From assembly GCF_006345805.1 (NCBI RefSeq), contig NC_042998.1, positions 97,836,001 to 97,900,000 on the forward strand: a stretch of DNA of 64,000 nucleotides, in the 5' to 3' direction. A program made the position numbers and the translations under genes. Numbering within the stretch: the stretch's first letter is position 1; each line of letters begins with the position of its first letter. Origin of the DNA: Octopus sinensis (Eukaryota). The notes beneath the pieces were generated by a model, which made no database searches, had not been told where the DNA came from, and saw only the letters and a list, made by a program, of their open reading frames with translations. Shown piece by piece: positions 3,300-62,800 of the stretch.

Positions 3300-3655
3300 A
3301 TTCTTTTCTACTGTGGGTACAAGGCCCGAAACCTTTTGGGAAGTGGGGCCAGTCGATTAGATGAAAGGCAAAGTCAACCTCGGTGGAATTTGAACTCAGA
3401 ACATAAAGACAGACGAAATACCTATTTCTTTACTACCCACAAGGGGCTAAACACAGAGGGGACAAACAAGGACAGACAAACGGATTAAGTCTATTATATC
3501 GACCCCAGTGCGTAACTGGTCCTTAATTTATCGAACCCGAAAGGATGAAAGGCAAAGTCGACCTCGGTGGAATTTGAACTCAGAACGTAGCAGCAGACGA
3601 AATACGGCTACGAATTTCGCCCGGCGTGCTAACGTTTCTGCCAGCTCGCCGCCTT
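3300..3655 (-). mobile_element. tRNA-derived SINE family A (dimeric copy)
   Basis: Minus strand: head GGCGGCGAGCTGGCAGAAACGTTAGC, B-box-like GAGTTCAAATTCC, and a conserved central block GTCGACTTTGCCTTTCATCCTTTCGGG..GATAAATTAAG.ACCAG. That block resembles Meta/Nin-type SINE core domains (from memory, unverified). More than 30 copies occur in the window. Confidence 0.85.
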
Positions 3656-3799
3656 ACATCAAGTTTGTATTGTCTCACAACTGAATCAGACGTTTGTAAA
3701 CATAAGAGGCATAACTCAAGATAACTTCCCTCAGTATTAGTTCAATGTAACATAGTGTATTGTGCCAAAAAGACTGCTTCAGTGGATAATAACGAAATA

Positions 3800-3952
3800 T
3801 TCTTTTCTACTCTAGGCACAAGGCTCGAAGTTTTTGGAGAGGGGGTGCAGTCGATTAGTAGATCGACCCCAGTACGCAACTAGTACTTAGTTTATCGACC
3901 CAGAAAGGAGGAAAAGCAAAGTCGACCTCGGCGGAATTTGAACTCAGAACAT
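3800..3952 (-). mobile_element. SINE family A, 5'-truncated
   Basis: Contains AAAGTCGACCTCGGCGGAATTTGAACTCAGAAC, as in the other copies. Confidence 0.8.
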
Positions 3953-4039
3953 AAAAAAATGTTTTCTCGGGACGCATACCGCAGTTTTGTGGCTTTCTAC
4001 TGTATAGCCACGTTAATTAAGATATACATAATGGCTTTT

Positions 4040-4688
4040 TGAATTCAGCCGCTGATAAGGAACAGAGGTTGGAAGCGGTGAAATTGAGGAGGTACAGGAT
4101 TACGTCTACTTAGGGCACAAAGTAAATATGCGCTGAGATATGGATACTGTAATCTCATAGAGAATAAGGGCAGGATGGAAGGCATTGAACTCAATAAAGG
4201 ATGTATTCGTAACAAAGCTAGACAATGCCATACGTGCCAGACTCTTTAATAGCACCGTCCCACTTGCGCTATTGTATGCAAGTGAGACGTGGGCTACTAA
4301 AGAGAGGATAGAATATTAATTTGCTAAGATGCAGAGGCCCATGGAAGGATCCATGCTAGGATTATCATTACAAGAGCATATTCGAAATGAGATAATTCAA
4401 GAACGGAGCGGAGTGAACGATGTAATCGTACAGTACCGAAAGCACAAGTTCCGCTGGATCTGACGTGCCACGTGGTTCACAGACAAATGGTAGATCCAAG
4501 AGATTGGAAAAAGTCACTTTGAAGGCCTCCACGAAGATGGAAAGACGATTTAGTTAAGCAATTTGGGCGAAGATGGAAAAGAGTGACGCAATCAAGACTG
4601 AATTGGAAGCGCATTGTGACCAGCGGTGTATAACATCATGTATATATCACTGTATCGTTGTATGGACCATAGTCCATACAACGATACA

Positions 4689-4690
<2 letters not shown>
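4040..4690 (+). mobile_element. RTE-clade LINE, 3' fragment (pseudogenised RT C-terminus)
   Basis: The frame from 4083 reads IEEVQDYVYLGHKVN..RIRAGWKALNSIK..RARLFNSTVPLALLYASETW..MEGSMLGLSLQEHIRNEIIQERSGVNDVI..KFRW, with stops. These are typical RTE motifs (YLG, YxxETW, RLRW). Confidence 0.85.
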
Positions 4691-4747
<57 letters not shown>

Positions 4748-4904
4748 CCGTTATATCTTGGATATTTCAACTGCAAGACATCTAAGCCTATTTTTCCGTC
4801 CCCCTCTGGTCTCTCAACGCCTTATCTCTCTTGCCAACCCTTCTGTTTAGCGGGGGAGGCTTTTGCCTTTTTTTCTTCCCTTTCTTTTCTTGAATTGCAA
4901 GGAA

Positions 4905-5117
4905 CCTCCTGAGTGTTGGTGGCGCGAGAAAGGCATCCAGTTTACTCTGTTAAATGGTTGGCATTAGAAAAGGCATCCAGCTGTAGAAGACATGCTAAAG
5001 GGGACATCGGAACACCACGCTGCCCCACGGCTCGCCGAGTCCTTCTAAGCAGTTCAACCCATGCCAGAATAAAAAATAGAAGTTAAATGTTGTCATTGTT
5101 TTTGTTGTTGTTGTTGT

Positions 5118-6090: not shown

Positions 6091-6222
6091 AATCATATAT
6101 TTCTGTGATTTTGATACTATATACACGTTTGTAAGAGATGCTATCTCGAGACAAATACTGTAGTTTACCAAGCTTTCTCCGGTATATATGCATCAAGTAT
6201 GATGCACAGAAGAGAAAACAAA

Positions 6223-6677: not shown

Positions 6678-6722
6678 TTGCTAAATGCGCATTTCATCAT
6701 CTTTGAGCTTCATCAGTAGCAA
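6678..6722 (-). ncRNA. Minimal type I hammerhead ribozyme motif
   Basis: Minus strand: UUGCUA-CUGAUGA-agcucaaagaugau-GAA-AUGCGCAU-U-UAGCAA. Helix I is a perfect 6 bp, the core is canonical, helix III is palindromic and the cleavage triplet is AUU. Helix II is weak. Confidence 0.7.
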
Positions 6723-6840
6723 GTTTCCACTAGCAACTGCGTGCTAAGACAAAGTTGACTTCAACTGTTATAGAAGAACAGTGATTAAAAAACCACTCCC
6801 GACGCAATTAGCCATCAAGCTAGATTAAAATTCATAACGA

Positions 6841-6895
6841 GCAGTTGCTAGAGGGTACTTGCTACTGATGAAGTTCAAAGAGGCAGAAATACGTA
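6841..6895 (+). repeat. Inverted copy of 6686-6740 containing a degenerate HHR
   Basis: GCAGTTGCTAG...TTGCTA-CTGATGA-agttcaaagaggca-GAAA-tacgta; it diverges near the predicted cleavage site. Confidence 0.65.
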
Positions 6896-7020
6896 AAACC
6901 GCTACTGGACGATTTTCGTCTGCTAGTGATATATTTCTATTTGTTAAGCACTGTATGTCTTTAAGACATAATTTTTCGAGACGACTACCGTAGTTTACCT
7001 GGTTCTCCACGGTGTAAATA

Positions 7021-8303
7021 TTTGGGAAAGTAAAAAATTATCCGCACTTTCACCAAAACTTTCTTTAAGTTGGCCACGCTGCCTTCAATGCTCGCGTACG
7101 ATACTCTTGTGGTTCAGGAACCGAGGTTTGACTTTGATCATTTCATGTTCTGTTTCTTGTGTTACAGAGTAAACACAGCCGCTCATTTGGCAGTGTGCAG
7201 GAAGAACAGATATCAGTGATCCGATTTCTCTGGTCTAAAGTTGTGTCAGGGGCTGAAATTCATCGCAGGTTTCCCGTACAATACGGAGATAGCACTCTAC
7301 CGTATTGAAGTGTGCATGAGTGGATCAAGAATTTTAAAAATGGTTGGACAAGCATAAAGCACAAAGAGGGAGCAGGACCCCCATCAACCTCCACCATTGA
7401 CGTGAAAACTCAAGAAGCTCGAGCGATTACCGATGCTATCTTCTGTGCAGCATACTTGGATAGACGTAATATACCGGGGAAAGCTTGGTAAACTACGGTA
7501 TTTGTCTCGAGATAGCATCTCGATGTGGTGGCAAGTTCTCTGTAAATTAGTCATTGTTCTGCATACGAAATCATCGATACAATAAAGTCTGTGCGAGATG
7601 GGTGTCAAGAGAGCCTACCGAAGTGCATAAACGCAATAGTGTGGTGATCTGCCTATAATTACTTGGCCGCTACAGCGATGAAGGTGAAGTATTTTTTGGA
7701 GATAAGAATCCCAGAAAATAAGACCTGGATCCATTTCTTTGAGCCAGAATCTAGAAAGCAGAGCATGGAGTGGAAACAGCCGGAATTGCCAGCGAAAAAG
7801 AAATTCAAGACTCAACCTTCCGCAGAAAAAGTGATGCTAACTGGTTTTGGGGATGCAAAAAGGCCTTTACTGGAACATTACCTGGAAAGGGGGTCTACAG
7901 TCGACAGTGTAGGCTACAGTGATGCGATGGCCTAAAAAGTTGAAATCAGCAATTCGTATCAAACGCTGAGGTTTATTGTCAAAGCAGGTGTTACTGTTGC
8001 ACGACAACGAATGCCCATATACAGCTGTCCACACCGTTGAAGCCATTGAAAAATTGGATTTCGAGTTGCTGGGATACCCTGTGTACGGTCCAGATCTTGC
8101 TCCTTCCGACTGTGATCACTTTGACGAAGAAGTGGTCCATAAATGGTTACGTAACCAACCAAAAACCTTCTCCAATGGAAGCTTGTAGACCGCAGGATGA
8201 AGTGCATCGAAAAGGAAGATGATTGTTGAAAAATGATGTAATTGTTCAACCCTTTTAATAGATTAGAGAAACAAAAGTACGTATAATTTTCGACGTACAC
8301 TCG
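7021..8303 (+). mobile_element. Full-length but degenerate mariner (DD34D) transposon
   Basis: Flanked by TA at 7019-20 and 8304-05. Imperfect TIRs (..AAAAATTATCCGCACTTT vs AAAGTACGTATAATTTT..). Frameshifted transposase with HTH (SVIRFLWS..GAEIHRR), CARWVSRE (WVPREL-like), KTWIHFFEPESRKQSMEW, KVMLT and HDN-..-PDLAPSD, with 34 residues between the two aspartates. Confidence 0.92.
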
Positions 8304-9063: not shown

Positions 9064-9066
9064 TAT

Positions 9067-9106
<40 letters not shown>

Positions 9107-9115
<9 letters not shown>

Positions 9116-9876
9116 TTAATAAGGGTGAGAGAATTAGATACTATATCTATTCAACACCAAGTGGCCCAGTGCTTCGAGAACCTGGATTATTATAATATTT
9201 TATTATATATTATAATATTTTATACAAAAATAAATATAAGAGAATGGTCACTATGTGGCTCATTCTAGCACTAGAAAATCCCAAAGGTTGAAACCTTTTG
9301 GATTTTCTAGTGCTAGAATGAGCCACATAGTGACCATTCTCTTATATTTATTTTTGTATAAAATATTATAATATATAATAAAATATTATAATAATCCAGG
9401 TTTCTCGAAGCACTGGGCCACTTGGTGTTGAATAGATATAGTATCTAATTCTCTCACCCTTATTAATTAATTATAATTATGCTACATTTATTTCTAAATG
9501 TGGTATTTGTTTCCATGAAAATTTGGCGCGCTGTTAGTAGGGGCATTTGAATTATAACGTCGGATGTAATCAATTGAACCACACGTGTATTTATCGTTAT
9601 GGTAAAATCTGGCGTGTGATTGAGTGGATTTCATCCAGATAGTTTTGGCCGAGGAGCTACAAGTGGGTTTTTTGTAAGTAAAATTACATTTAATTCATTA
9701 ATAGCGAAACAATTGTCCCAAAATAATCTGTATTTTTGTTATTTTTTATTTGCCCTGTTCGTGTGAGCTAACAATCGTACTGACTTTCACGGGAAACATG
9801 TATTTTTGTGGTTGAAACCTTTTGGATTTTCTAGTGCTAGAATGAGCCACATAGTGACCATTCTCTTATATTTATT
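9107..9876 (+). mobile_element. Non-coding PLE-type/retrozyme-like element: 183-bp inverted copy + 524-bp unit + 67-bp direct terminal repeat
   Basis: 9107-9289 is the reverse complement of 9292-9475 (about 2 differences). 9286-9352 is repeated at 9810-9876. Both flanks are (TA)n, and the unit contains an HHR motif. Confidence 0.8.
9643..9723 (+). ncRNA. Type I hammerhead ribozyme motif (U4C variant)
   Basis: UUUUGG-CCGAGGA-GCUA-(42 nt loop)-UAGC-GAA-ACAAUUGU-C-CCAAAA: 6-bp helix I, 4-bp helix II, palindromic helix III and GUC triplet, with predicted cleavage after 9717. Confidence 0.75.
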
Positions 9877-9881
9877 ATTAT

Positions 9882-9919
<38 letters not shown>

Positions 9920-10029
9920 ATATAATATATATATATATATACGCTCACCTTCCCGAGCATTAAACTAATACACCTGTTTGTTGTTTATACACCTGTCTTC
10001 GTCTTTTGTTTTTCTGTAAATTTCAGTTA

Positions 10030-10510: not shown

Positions 10511-11186
10511 TCATGCTACGTAAACTCAAATGAAACTGTCGCAAACACAATAGCAATAAGCATCTCAAGCGTGAAATATGAATAATAAGAGTTAATTTGA
10601 TTTTGACTTGGCTAATACACAGCAAGCGCCTGTGTCTCTGTATCCAACGCCACACTCTTGTTGATCTAAAACATGGATATCCACTGTCCCCCAACCCCAC
10701 CCACACACATCGTTTTACACGCTCCGTTCTGTACAGTATTGACTTATAATTCGTTCAACCCATTCATTTCTCCGTTTCCTAAAAGCAAGAGTGGTATTAT
10801 TAAATGATATTTTTGTTCAGACGAAGGGATGGATGGGGGAAATGTACAACCGTTTCATGATTTCAGTTGAAGCAGACGAAATAATTACCAACAATATGCA
10901 GTCAACTATATGGCTTTTCATTATAACATTATAATTTGTTTTTTAAATAATAATAATTATTTTTGTTGTGTTTGCTTTTTTTTCTATACGAGCTGTCCCA
11001 AATCTTACCCAGTGACCTCAAATAACAGCAATTCAGAAATTTTAGAATGAGAGTTATTTATGGTTAGTAATGATATATTTTAGGTAAAAGAGACCAGATT
11101 CTGAGAACTAAAACTCTTTATCAAATTTGTAATATTCCGATTTTTGAAAGAATTTTAAGAGAATCGGATATTTTGTTGTTGTTGTC

Positions 11187-11821
11187 AGACAATACGAAGA
11201 GTGCGATGCGATTACGATAGATATTTTACTGGTTGAACGATATTTTGATAGCTAGCATGTCTTTGTCGAGTTCAAAACGCACCAAACACAACTTGATTTA
11301 TGTTGGTTGTACAACAGAACAATTAAACAAAAGATTCAATGGGCACAGATATGAGGTCAGGCACAATAAGAGTAGTTCGACAGAACTTGCCGAACATTTT
11401 ACATCAGACGGCTGCAATTTTTGAAAAAGACTTGAAAGTGCATATTCTCAGAAAATATTCCGAATATGTTACTCTTTCAATACTCAAAATGCATGAGGAG
11501 AAATATGTTTGCGGGTTATTAACATCACGCCCTGGAGGAATGAATAAAATGACAGGAGAATTTCATCATATTTACACAAAACTGTTTGATTAAATATTCT
11601 TCTTCCTTTTCTTTTTTCTCTTTCTCTTTTTTTTTTGCCATTCCATCAACGTGGGGACGCTGGTTGCTCTTGTTCATATTTTGGATTTGAATTTCTATAA
11701 TTTTGAATTTTTATCACTTTTCATTTTGAACTCGACACTCGACAAAGACACACTAGTTGTCGAAATATCGTTCAACCAATAAAATATCTATTGCAATCGC
11801 ATCGCGCTCTTCGTATTGTCT
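11187..11821 (+). mobile_element. 5'-truncated Penelope-like element: GIY-YIG endonuclease fragment with inverted terminal repeat
   Basis: LIYVGCTTEQLNKRFNGHR..ELAEHF / LKVHIL..MHEEKYVCGLLTSRPGGMN (frameshifted GIY-YIG). 11187-11277 is the reverse complement of 11724-11821. Confidence 0.88.
11726..11775 (+). ncRNA. Minimal HHR variant (U3-A8 covariation) in the PLE terminal repeat
   Basis: UUGAAC-[7-nt duplication]-UCGACAA-A-GACA-cacuagu-UGUC-GAA-AUAU-C-GUUCAA. The inverted copy (about 11233-11275, minus strand) lacks the duplication but has GAAA changed to AAAA. Confidence 0.6.
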
Positions 11822-11857
11822 ATTTACCTTTGTGAAAAGTTACGTCAATCCTTTAAA

Positions 11858-11888
<31 letters not shown>

Positions 11889-51466: not shown

Positions 51467-52096
51467 TTATATTTTCCTATCCTTCCTTAATACCGGTTCC
51501 CATATGTTATTCATATCTGCACTCGGTCTGCTTAGGAGGTTGTTGAGTCCTAGCATATATGCTGCTGATTTTAGTTTTCGTATTTTCCAGTGGTGTTCTC
51601 TGTTTATTATTTTAACTTCATCCCACAGTGGGAGGTAGTCTCCATTTTTCCATACATGATCAGCTATACCCGATTTATCAATATGTCCTCGTGTCACAGT
51701 TTTGCGATGTTCCTCTACCCTTATTGTGAGGGGGCGGCATGTTTTGTCTTTGTATAAGCTACCACAGCTGCATGGGATGGAGTACACGCAGTTTTTGGTC
51801 ATATTCTCTTCTGTTGGTGGTTTTACCCGAAGGAGATATTTGCGAAGTGTTGTATTACTCTTGAATACTGTCCTGATGTCATATGGGCCGCATATCTTTT
51901 GTATCTTTTCGGAGAGGCCTTTCACATAGGGCAGACAGACTGTAGACAGTTTATTGGTTTCATTCCCTCTTTTCTTCATAATTAGAGTAGATAGTATGTT
52001 TTTGGGGTAGTTGTTGCTTATTAGATTGTTACTGAGCTTGATCATTTCTTCGTGGTGGGTATCACGATCGCTGGTTATATTCTTTGCTCGATGCAC
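51467..52096 (-). pseudogene. PLE ORF C-terminal portion: RT thumb/linker + GIY-YIG endonuclease (209 aa open, catalytic motifs damaged)
   Basis: NNYP, LPYVKGLSEKI, VYSIPCSCGSLYKDKTCRPLTIRVEEH (GIY-YIG; YxG mutated), SGIADHVW and RKLKSA (E mutated). Confidence 0.9.
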
Positions 52097-53488
52097 TGAG
52101 CAATCCCTCTCTTTACACCGTAGGGATGGTGGGAATTGAAGTTAAGGTGTCGTCCAATGAAGGTCTGCTTGCAGTATACGACCTTCACTGGACGATACCT
52201 TAACTTCGATGCCTTAGCTTTTCTGGAGTACCACTTTTGAACTAGATCGTATTTTATTAAGTAGTTATATAACTGATTTCTGAATGTTTGGATATGCTGA
52301 AAGTTCGCAGCTCTGGATTTAATAGCATGCCTTCATTTTATTGAAATCTACTACCAATGCTTCTGGGGATCTCTGGGCTATAAATTGGTGGCGGTGTTTG
52401 TGATAATGATTATTATGATTACAATAATGATGTTAATATGAACGTGACAAGGAAGTAAAATAAGCATTAACCATTCCATCAATTTAGAAGGAATAAAAGG
52501 CAATACTATATATTATCTTTTCTTAGATCCTTTCCCAAATAGATGAGAGCACTTATGTGAGCTCAGCGTGTTAATCCACTCAACCTAAAGTTTCGAAAGC
52601 TATCTTAGCTATAAAAACATACAGAATATTATTTCTTGTTAATGTATTAATAACCCTATCTATCACCCCCGTGAACTTCTAAATTATTGTGTTCTAGCAT
52701 AGTAAAATGTAAGAAAATTGGTGCAAAACCGCAATGAAAGACTTCAGATAATGACAATAAACATGGTACACCAAATATAATAGATATCGTTATTCCATAT
52801 TCGACATCCTGTTCCGTTCTATAAAAGGTTATCCACCATGTAAGTGATGTTATGAACTCATCATAGGCCAATCCACTTTCTCACATTGATCTTTATTCCT
52901 GCTATGTCATGCTGAACCACTAATGAAAAATCTTGTCATCAATGCCAATACTTTCCTATAATTTGATCAATAAAAGTATAGTTTGTATACTGTATATAGA
53001 AAAATATAGAAATAAAGCAAGCTCAAATTAATCCGCTCTATCACTAAACAGCAAAAATATATTAAGCACTATATATGCCTGTAATGAAAAAGGAAAGAAA
53101 AACATCCCAAATACTCCAGTTTAGGATTATGTAATGGTTAAAACTGAAATTAGGGCCAATTGATTACTTTTTTAAACGACAGTAAATGATAATTCACGAA
53201 ACAAATATACAAATCATTTTAGGTGTTATATTAATAAATGTATAGATTATAAAACAAAATGAAGGCATGTTTTTTTCTGAGACGCCATGATACATACAAA
53301 TAGCAGGTCAACAACGGAAGAAAAACCCAAATACGAAAAAAAACAGAAGTCCAAGAGATGTTCTCAGTTAATATTATTAGGTTGACGCTGAAAGAAAGAC
53401 AAAAAGTTATAAAATTAAAGTTGTAGAGTAAAATCATAACGCTTTGGAAGTCCTTCATGAGATATACAGAGGAAAGTCCAGGGAAGAA

Positions 53489-62501: not shown

Positions 62502-62533
<32 letters not shown>

Positions 62534-62800
62534 CCCACACATACATACATAAATTTCTCAAAAATAACTGTAACTTTCACATTTTATTTGAAACCGACAC
62601 CAAAATAGCCAACTTCCTCGATGTTACACTGAATTTAAATACCGAGCCATACCAGTCATATCATAAGCCGAATCAAGCATTACAGCATATCAACATTCTC
62701 TCTAATCATCCTACAAGCACCAAAAAAAAAGTATTGTAACTGGAATTGCAATAAGAATCTCGAATTTATCTGCTAACGAGACAATATTTAACAACCATCA
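61770..62800 (+). mobile_element. Naiad/Chlamys-type Penelope-like RT fragment, split by an insertion at about 62296-62590
   Basis: NPNCHLVNPAKSESGLASKHIL, FTQFDIVDFYLSVS, FDVAMGAYD, FIGLYIL, GLYRDD, then ANFLDVTLNL..YHKPN..HINILSNHP. Confidence 0.85.

What the first reader, a model, noticed from the sequence alone, without database searches (positions are those of the whole stretch)
9643..9723. Intact-looking hammerhead inside a 524-nt non-coding, retrozyme-like unit
Seen: UUUUGG/CCAAAA helix I, CCGAGGA core, GCUA/UAGC helix II with an unusually long 42-nt loop, GAA, ACAAUUGU helix III and a GUC cleavage triplet. The unit has no ORF. A second 3'-half (GAAACAUGUA, about 9793-9802) may be a decayed second motif. 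Inference: a young non-autonomous element whose RNA is self-cleaved, and possibly circularised, and mobilised by PLE reverse transcriptase, like metazoan non-LTR retrozymes.
Basis: partly seen in the sequence, partly recalled or inferred. Interest (0 to 1): 0.85.

Follow-up and report, generated by a model that had tools for sequence, protein, structure and literature searches.

The report
Hammerhead-bearing non-coding Penelope-type mobile element
A real self-cutting RNA motif sits in a short, many-copy, protein-free jumping element that inserted the way Penelope-like retrotransposons do; it is a new member of a known kind, and this copy's ribozyme is probably weakened.

Summary
The hammerhead is real (1 of 30,000 shuffles), but three details need correcting. 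The '42-nt loop' is a paired extension of helix II. The core carries U4C, while most relatives have canonical CUGA. The 'second half' at 9793-9802 is one strand of a long-range helix, not a decayed ribozyme.

The 524-nt ORF-less unit has a 67-nt exact terminal repeat, a 98%-identical inverted arm with a one-sided tail, and (TA)n flanks. This is the published Penelope-like (PLE) insertion footprint. Related contigs were laid from three organisms, and their variants tend to preserve the RNA fold (P about 0.006, with caveats).

Best reading: a non-autonomous PLE-type element of the non-LTR retrozyme kind, copied in trans from more-than-unit RNA. This locus holds one ribozyme, so it cannot release a circle by itself. 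Cleavage, transcription, circles, tandem arrays and the helper element are not shown. Verdict: new member of a known kind.

The parts
9064..9106 (.). (TA)n microsatellite, left flank (target; no target-site duplication can be told)
9107..9290 (-). Inverted arm: reverse complement of 9291-9475 (one substitution, one 1-nt indel), head-to-head with the main arm
   Evidence: 98.4% over the palindrome
9286..9295 (+). Inversion junction at a small palindrome (GGTT-GA-AACC); 4 nt shared by both arms
9286..9809 (+). 524-nt non-coding repeat unit, 32% GC
9286..9352 (+). Upstream copy of the 67-nt terminal redundancy (pseudo-LTR-like)
9353..9475 (+). 123-nt 'tail' present at the end of the inverted arm but not at the right end; 9475 is also an end followed by (TA)n in one contig each of X14 and X16
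   Evidence: table 7
9480..9505 (+). Hairpin with an A-U to G-C double change (9484/9501) in relatives; the neighbouring pair is broken at the same depth (9502)
9508..9523 (+). 5' strand of a long-range helix closing the ribozyme-bearing rod; two A.C mismatches here are G-C in nearly all relatives (9515, 9521)
9636..9730 (+). Type I hammerhead: helix I 7+5 bp, extended helix II 4+8+5 bp, palindromic helix III
9649..9655 (+). Core CCGAGGA: U4C variant; most relatives read CUGA(G/C)GA
   Evidence: table 3
9656..9705 (+). Extended helix II; G.U pairs at 9663 and 9667 are A-U in many relatives
9709..9717 (+). Self-complementary helix III (8 nt) and predicted cut after C17 = 9717
9782..9798 (+).
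9810..9876 (+). Downstream copy of the 67-nt redundancy; right end of the insertion
9877..9941 (.). (TA)n microsatellite, right flank

Best explanation
A young copy of a multi-copy, non-coding, non-autonomous Penelope-type retroelement (non-LTR-retrozyme kind). Steps: (1) INFERRED: a tandem or partial-tandem source locus is transcribed into a more-than-unit RNA that folds into a rod topped by the hammerhead. (2) INFERRED from PMC11167929: the RT/GIY-YIG protein of an autonomous PLE nicks both strands of a (TA)n tract and starts cDNA inside the RNA, downstream of the ribozyme, at two AU-only stretches (ends at 9352/9876 and 9475). (3) SHOWN as anatomy: one arm ran 591 nt, across the uncut ribozyme site and 67 nt into the next unit; the other covers about 185 nt; they meet head-to-head at a small palindrome. 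(4) The ribozyme is real and maintained at family level, but should cut well only as a dimer through its palindromic helix III. This copy belongs to a minority U4C lineage and holds one motif, so it is a poor cutter and cannot make a unit-length circle. Cleavage is probably not required for spreading.
For: Footprint: matching the structure described in PMC3846280 (direct + inverted pLTR, palindrome at the junction, one-sided tail; passages) and PMC8557442. Family: 227, 30 and 13 contigs laid from X4, X14 and X16 (three organisms, three studies). Overlapping pieces cover 9394-9809, and the share running on into unlike sequence is 0.01 in X4 (0.1 in X14 and X16). The 9475/9476 and 9809/9810 junctions also occur in relatives with other letters, so they are not private to this locus (tables 3, 7, 8). 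Structure kept: 24 variants sum to -2.4 kcal/mol against 21.9 +/- 9.6 for type-matched random changes, P = 0.006; the 11 majority variants give P = 0.013. N7 varies while 12 other core positions show no variant row. Dimer fold -56.2 against 2 x -25.5 kcal/mol, with both cores free. U4C is shared: X4 record 20 (depth 1270.5) keeps C at 9650. U4C lowers activity in vitro yet stays viable in a viroid (PMC3088659, passage). Hammerhead mutants do not impair PLE insertion in vitro (PMC11167929).
Against: No helper element found: 12 short probes from the unit gave no match in the octopus Naiad/Hydra consensus sequences of PMC8557442 (10 absent, 2 only inside coding regions of other entries), and no other copy lies in the window. 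9286-9393 was skipped by the read tool, and 23 of 41 loose ends were not shown, so a branch into an ORF is not excluded. The junction at 9475/9476 is crossed with only about 22 nt on its left, under the tool's 31-nt bridging standard. Three of nine variant rows inside the hammerhead break pairs (9644 in 91 of 130 depth in X14; 9636; 9730). The C4 contig also lacks one base in helix II. The folding z-score is not distinctive: 6 of 37 control windows reach -4.4 or lower. Variants share ancestry, so the P values are optimistic. The tail (123 nt) is longer than the usual 30-40 nt. Priming at AU-only stretches differs from the non-homologous start reported for the anole element.
Confidence: 0.55

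Rival explanations
1. Same element, but spread by the classic retrozyme route: multimers self-cleave (as dimers), a host ligase closes about 524-535-nt circles, and a PLE RT goes more than once round the circle.
For: The copy is 1.13 units long and crosses the cut site. The long-range helix would clamp the two ends of a cleaved monomer. Most relatives keep the canonical core. Circles are shown for mussel, coral and axolotl retrozymes (PMC7229834).
Against: Circular and linear folds score alike, as does the minus strand (z -5.2, -4.6, -5.1). A U4C lineage is well represented. In PMC11167929 uncleaved RNA is the dominant substrate, and no RNA-seq ends lie at the cut. Only 1 of 9 Xenopus dimers cleaved in 10.64898/2026.07.22.740005.
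Confidence: 0.27
2. The unit is only the terminal, non-coding piece (3' UTR, ribozyme, 5' UTR) of an autonomous PLE, or a rare internal deletion of it, and does not spread as a family of its own.
For: Most PLE insertions are 5'-truncated (PMC8557442). X4 depth falls from about 30,000 (9448-9465) to 3,600-5,100 (9484-9537), so most copies may end at 9475 or begin further right (the tool warns depth is no copy number). The first 108 nt were not examined.
Against: No ORF remnant recognised in six frames. Two different variant contigs in X16 and one at depth 1766 in X4 cross 9475/9476 as here. The conserved helix joins 9508-9523 to 9782-9798. Only 0.01 of laid X4 sequence runs on unlike.
Confidence: 0.13
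3. A DNA-level foldback/MITE-like or satellite repeat with a chance hammerhead look-alike, or an assembly fold-back artefact.
For: AT-rich hairpins fold on both strands. Rfam finds nothing. The inverted arms are nearly identical.
Against: Chance rate 1 to 4 in 30,000. Relatives are closer to the canonical core than this copy. The inverted repeat is sub-terminal, not a TIR pair. The outer end of the inverted arm recurs with (TA)n in two other runs.
Confidence: 0.05

Closest known systems
Non-LTR retrozymes of animals (Cervera and de la Pena 2020, PMC7229834; Li, Clavereau and Pollet 2026, 10.64898/2026.07.22.740005)
   Same: Non-coding, GC under 50%, one type I hammerhead per unit, self-paired RNA, solo 'monomers' common, PLE proposed as helper; molluscan example in Mytilus.
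   Different: 524 nt (above the 150-450 bp of the 2020 paper, inside the 51-972 bp of the 2026 one). No array of two or more ribozymes seen here. A PLE-type inverted arm, tail and (TA)n target are present; the 2020 main text has 0 occurrences of 'inverted', 'microsatellite', 'octopus' or 'cephalopod'. Helix II is far longer. Circles are not shown.
EN+ Penelope-like elements: pLTR, inverted arm, tail (PMC3846280, PMC8557442, PMC11167929)
   Same: Partial tandem, head-to-head inversion at a palindrome, one-sided tail, ends downstream of the hammerhead, microsatellite target.
   Different: No ORF. The tail is 123 nt, not 30-40. The ribozyme lies 92 nt upstream of the repeated part rather than inside it.
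Hydra-clade PLE hammerheads (PMC8557442 File S2)
   Same: (TA)n preference, presence in octopus, 4-bp helix III with a tiny loop, and in two entries the same GGAG...CGAAACA frame around helix II (compared by eye).
   Different: Helix II is 3-7 bp there. No sequence match of this unit to Hydra-1_Obim was found with 12 probes. A lead, not an assignment.
Minimal PLE hammerheads (PMC4209133) and non-autonomous Chlamys elements such as MRC1 (PMC8557442)
   Same: Palindromic helix III implying dimer cleavage; non-autonomous PLEs with pLTRs already exist.
   Different: This motif is extended rather than minimal; most Chlamys elements lack a canonical hammerhead.

Membership tests
Type I hammerhead ribozyme | Three helices around CUGANGA / GAAA / NUH, helix I open | tested here: met
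   family majority has U4
Type I hammerhead ribozyme | Fully canonical core in this copy | tested here: not met
   U4C at 9650
Type I hammerhead ribozyme | Core and helices conserved among relatives | tested here: inconclusive
   No variant row in 9672-9729 (post hoc P 0.027); 2 pair-keeping, 3 pair-breaking rows
Type I hammerhead ribozyme | Self-cleavage after H17 | not testable with these tools
   needs in vitro assay
Non-LTR retrozyme | Short non-coding unit, GC under 50%, no LTR/PBS/PPT | tested here: met
   32% GC, no ORF, no tRNA; PBS/PPT not searched for separately
Non-LTR retrozyme | Multi-copy family | tested here: met
   227, 30, 13 contigs with many variants in 3 of 4 runs laid
Non-LTR retrozyme | Two or more tandem units each with a ribozyme ('active') | tested here: not met
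   This locus has 1.13 units and one ribozyme; arrays elsewhere could not be examined (no genome held)
Non-LTR retrozyme | Expressed as linear monomers and circles | not testable with these tools
   no holder on record as RNA; contigs cannot show ends
Non-LTR retrozyme | Highly self-paired monomer | tested here: inconclusive
   69% paired, 0 of 100 shuffles as stable, but 6 of 37 control windows score as well
Non-autonomous PLE | Partial tandem plus inverted 5'-truncated arm, optional tail | tested here: met
Non-autonomous PLE | Sequence similarity to the ends of an autonomous PLE | tested here: inconclusive
   none with 12 exact probes in the PMC8557442 supplement nor within the window; Repbase/Dfam not available
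Non-autonomous PLE | PLEs present in the same genome | tested here: inconclusive
   decayed GIY-YIG fragment at 11245-11421, Pfam E 0.0016, below the cut-off, with inverted arms; no intact element seen
Autonomous PLE | RT and GIY-YIG ORF | tested here: not met

The most novel reading that the evidence does not exclude
The family makes abundant roughly 530-nt circles closed by a conserved rod and an unusually long (17-bp) helix II, and this locus is a direct footprint of a (TA)n-targeting PLE (possibly Hydra clade) copying such an RNA in trans. It would be primed on both target strands by pairing to AU-only stretches, as telomeric PLEs do with telomere repeats. The co-existing U4 and C4 lineages would then be a natural experiment on whether ribozyme cleavage helps or hinders spread.
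Probability: 0.25. Interest if true: 0.65.

Novelty: new member of a known kind. Interest (0 to 1): 0.42.

Why it matters
That PLE enzymes move animal retrozymes rests, in the two papers read, on co-occurrence and sequence kinship. Here an ORF-less, hammerhead-bearing unit carries the PLE insertion footprint itself. The family also offers canonical and U4C lineages side by side, which makes the open question of what PLE hammerheads are for testable. I found no report of a cephalopod retrozyme (searches; text searches). The 2020 paper's supplement was unreadable, one of three files of the 2014 paper was not searched, bioRxiv supplements are closed, and repeat libraries were not available, so the family may already sit there unnamed.

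Tried and rejected
Own genome: none held. Rfam: 0 matches at gathering level; 32 weak matches, mostly hairpin/miRNA models, no hammerhead. Collection scans: 0 hits in metagenome, genome (24) and viral (25) contigs. No RNA holder listed; X14 and X16 are only guessed to be RNA, so expression is neither shown nor denied. X21 (raw DNA, organism A): 0 of 12,895,792 reads laid, marked 'no test' by the tool; unexplained. I laid 4 of the 24 listed runs; unlaid rows are not used as evidence. No joints and no end pile-ups were reported, which contigs cannot show. The shuffle counts were discarded: my pattern had a bug and missed the real motif; redone. Second ribozyme: rejected (see observation check). 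One X16 loose end behind 9782 holds a CUGAUGA but no helix II by eye. tRNA module: none. Naiad as parent, suggested by 'HHR_half_core' spacing of 35-50 nt in octopus Naiads: no match by probes or by eye. The neighbouring GIY-YIG element shares no DNA similarity with the unit. Whole-unit folding as a sign of a circle: rejected, as it is neither circle- nor strand-specific nor unique (37 of 84 control windows folded before the time limit). Search of earlier findings by sequence and place: nothing.

Full report
OBSERVATION. The motif is at the stated place. A type I descriptor finds it as the only loose-setting hit in the 64-kb window, with C17 at 9717. It is met by 4 (loose) and 1 (strict) of 30,000 shuffles of the unit, and by 9 and 0 of 150 block-shuffled windows. 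Helix I is 7 bp plus 5 bp beyond a mismatch. The supposed 42-nt loop is an 8-bp and a 5-bp stem with pair probabilities of 0.91-1.0. Helix III has probability 0.0 in the monomer, whose best fold pairs part of the core with it. Two copies fold with an 8-bp intermolecular helix III and free cores (-56.2 against 2 x -25.5 kcal/mol). Rfam does not detect it.

ANATOMY. Left to right: (TA)n; an inverted copy of 9291-9475 (98.4%); the unit 9286-9809; an exact 67-nt repeat of its start; (TA)n. The arms meet at a small palindrome sharing 4 nt. The left arm ends 123 nt further into the element than the right arm. There is no ORF and no tRNA. PMC3846280 (passages) and PMC8557442 (passages and introduction) describe this arrangement for Penelope-like elements: direct pLTRs, an adjacent head-to-head inverted copy with a palindrome at the junction, an optional one-sided tail, and microsatellite targets.

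RELATIVES. No genome is held, and the prokaryote, viral and metagenome scans were empty. Of 24 listed runs, 20 hold part of the stretch and 5 hold half or more. I laid 4: X4 227 contigs, X14 30, X16 13, X21 0 reads ('no test'). The tool skipped 9286-9393, showed 18 of 41 loose ends and 24 of 273 pieces, and warns that depth is no copy number.

Four results matter. (i) U is the majority at core position 4 in all three runs, but one X4 contig of depth 1270.5 and one X14 contig of depth 3.7 keep C, so U4C is a shared minority lineage. (ii) The free position N7 varies; no row falls in 9672-9729 (post hoc P 0.027). Changes at 9663 and 9667 turn G.U into A-U in the helix II extension. Against this, 9644, 9636 and 9730 break pairs, mainly in X14. 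(iii) One contig each in X14 and X16 ends at 9475 followed by (TA)n, like the inverted arm here. (iv) Pieces overlap along 9394-9809, and little runs on into foreign sequence (0.01, 0.1, 0.1).

STRUCTURE BEYOND THE RIBOZYME. The unit folds into a rod topped by the hammerhead. Its outer helix, 9508-9523 with 9782-9798, has two A.C mismatches in this copy that are G-C in nearly all relatives. Scored against the window fold alone, 8 of 24 variants kept a pair, 6 broke one and 10 were unpaired, no better than the 201 of 360 expected for transitions. Scored by energy, the 24 variants were less destabilising than type-matched random changes (P 0.006; 11 majority variants P 0.013; background 20-40 sites per type). 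The variants are not independent and were pre-filtered by likeness, so this is moderate support. The overall z-score (-5.2 circular, -4.6 linear, -5.1 minus strand) is matched by 6 of 37 control windows and says nothing about circles.

MECHANISM. Both outer ends are element 3' ends downstream of the ribozyme (159 and 282 nt past the cut), both at AU-only stretches. PMC11167929 (main text, parts 1-2 of 4) shows a PLE protein cutting and extending both target strands, starting inside the RNA at two sites that define the tail, preferring uncleaved RNA, and working with dead ribozymes. That accounts for this anatomy without a circle. A re-ligated circle would give the same DNA, so the template stays open: 0.55 linear, 0.27 circular. 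Snap-back of one cDNA could also build the inverted arm; the recurrence of the 9475 end favours separate priming. U4C lowers activity but need not abolish it (PMC3088659, passages). Palindromic helix III implies dimer cleavage (PMC4209133, parts 1-2 of 4 and two supplementary files). With one ribozyme, this locus cannot release a monomer. Read-through would instead form a 185-bp double-stranded hairpin (inference).

COMPARISON. It works like a non-LTR retrozyme (PMC7229834, parts 2-4 of 6 and term search), which 10.64898/2026.07.22.740005 (parts 1-3 of 5 and term search) argues are non-autonomous PLE derivatives. This locus fails their two-ribozyme criterion, so I file it as a solo copy of a non-autonomous PLE-type family, with retrozyme membership of the family untested. 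The helper is unknown. Hydra-clade elements share the (TA)n target and a similar helix III (supplement of PMC8557442), and a Hydra-like RT remnant lies in the window, but 12 probes found no match. PMC8967140 (passages) only confirms Penelope expansions in octopus. Other papers were seen as search listings only. Earlier AI notes describe similar PLE end-pieces elsewhere; they are leads, not support.

VERDICT. A real feature, read largely correctly but overrated: new member of a known kind, interest 0.42.

Noticed in passing
window 6680-6905: Two hammerhead-like cores on opposite strands (6716 minus, with 6-bp helix I and palindromic helix III but no clear helix II; 6865 plus) inside a 53-bp, 85% inverted repeat; probably another PLE end-piece.
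   Followed up: partly
window 11020-11870: Decayed PLE-like 3' end: frameshifted GIY-YIG fragment (Pfam E 0.0016, below cut-off) with 89% inverted arms at 11187-11271 and 11737-11821; unrelated in DNA to the unit.
   Followed up: partly
window 62530-62736: Short frame resembling the RT thumb region of Hydra-1_Obim, by eye; Pfam gave only a weak match I take as chance.
   Followed up: partly
window 51467-52213: 224-aa minus-strand frame that I recall as Penelope/Poseidon-like, next to an 83-bp palindrome; no Pfam match.
   Followed up: partly
window 7100-8200: Decayed frames that I recall as mariner transposase; 83-bp inverted match between 6135-6213 and 7439-7521.
   Followed up: no
window 3341-55531 (families D17-D20): Dispersed SINE-like family, at least 15 partial copies.
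   Followed up: no
window 9438: An X16 contig carries 11 more bases here, and loose ends in X14 and X16 point the same way; both arms of this insertion lack them, so the deletion was already in the template.
   Followed up: partly
PMC8557442 supplement, 8 Naiad families marked HHR_half_core: Their core halves lie 35-50 nt apart, like the 50 nt here; some might be full ribozymes with long helices missed by short-stem descriptors. Not tested.
   Followed up: no
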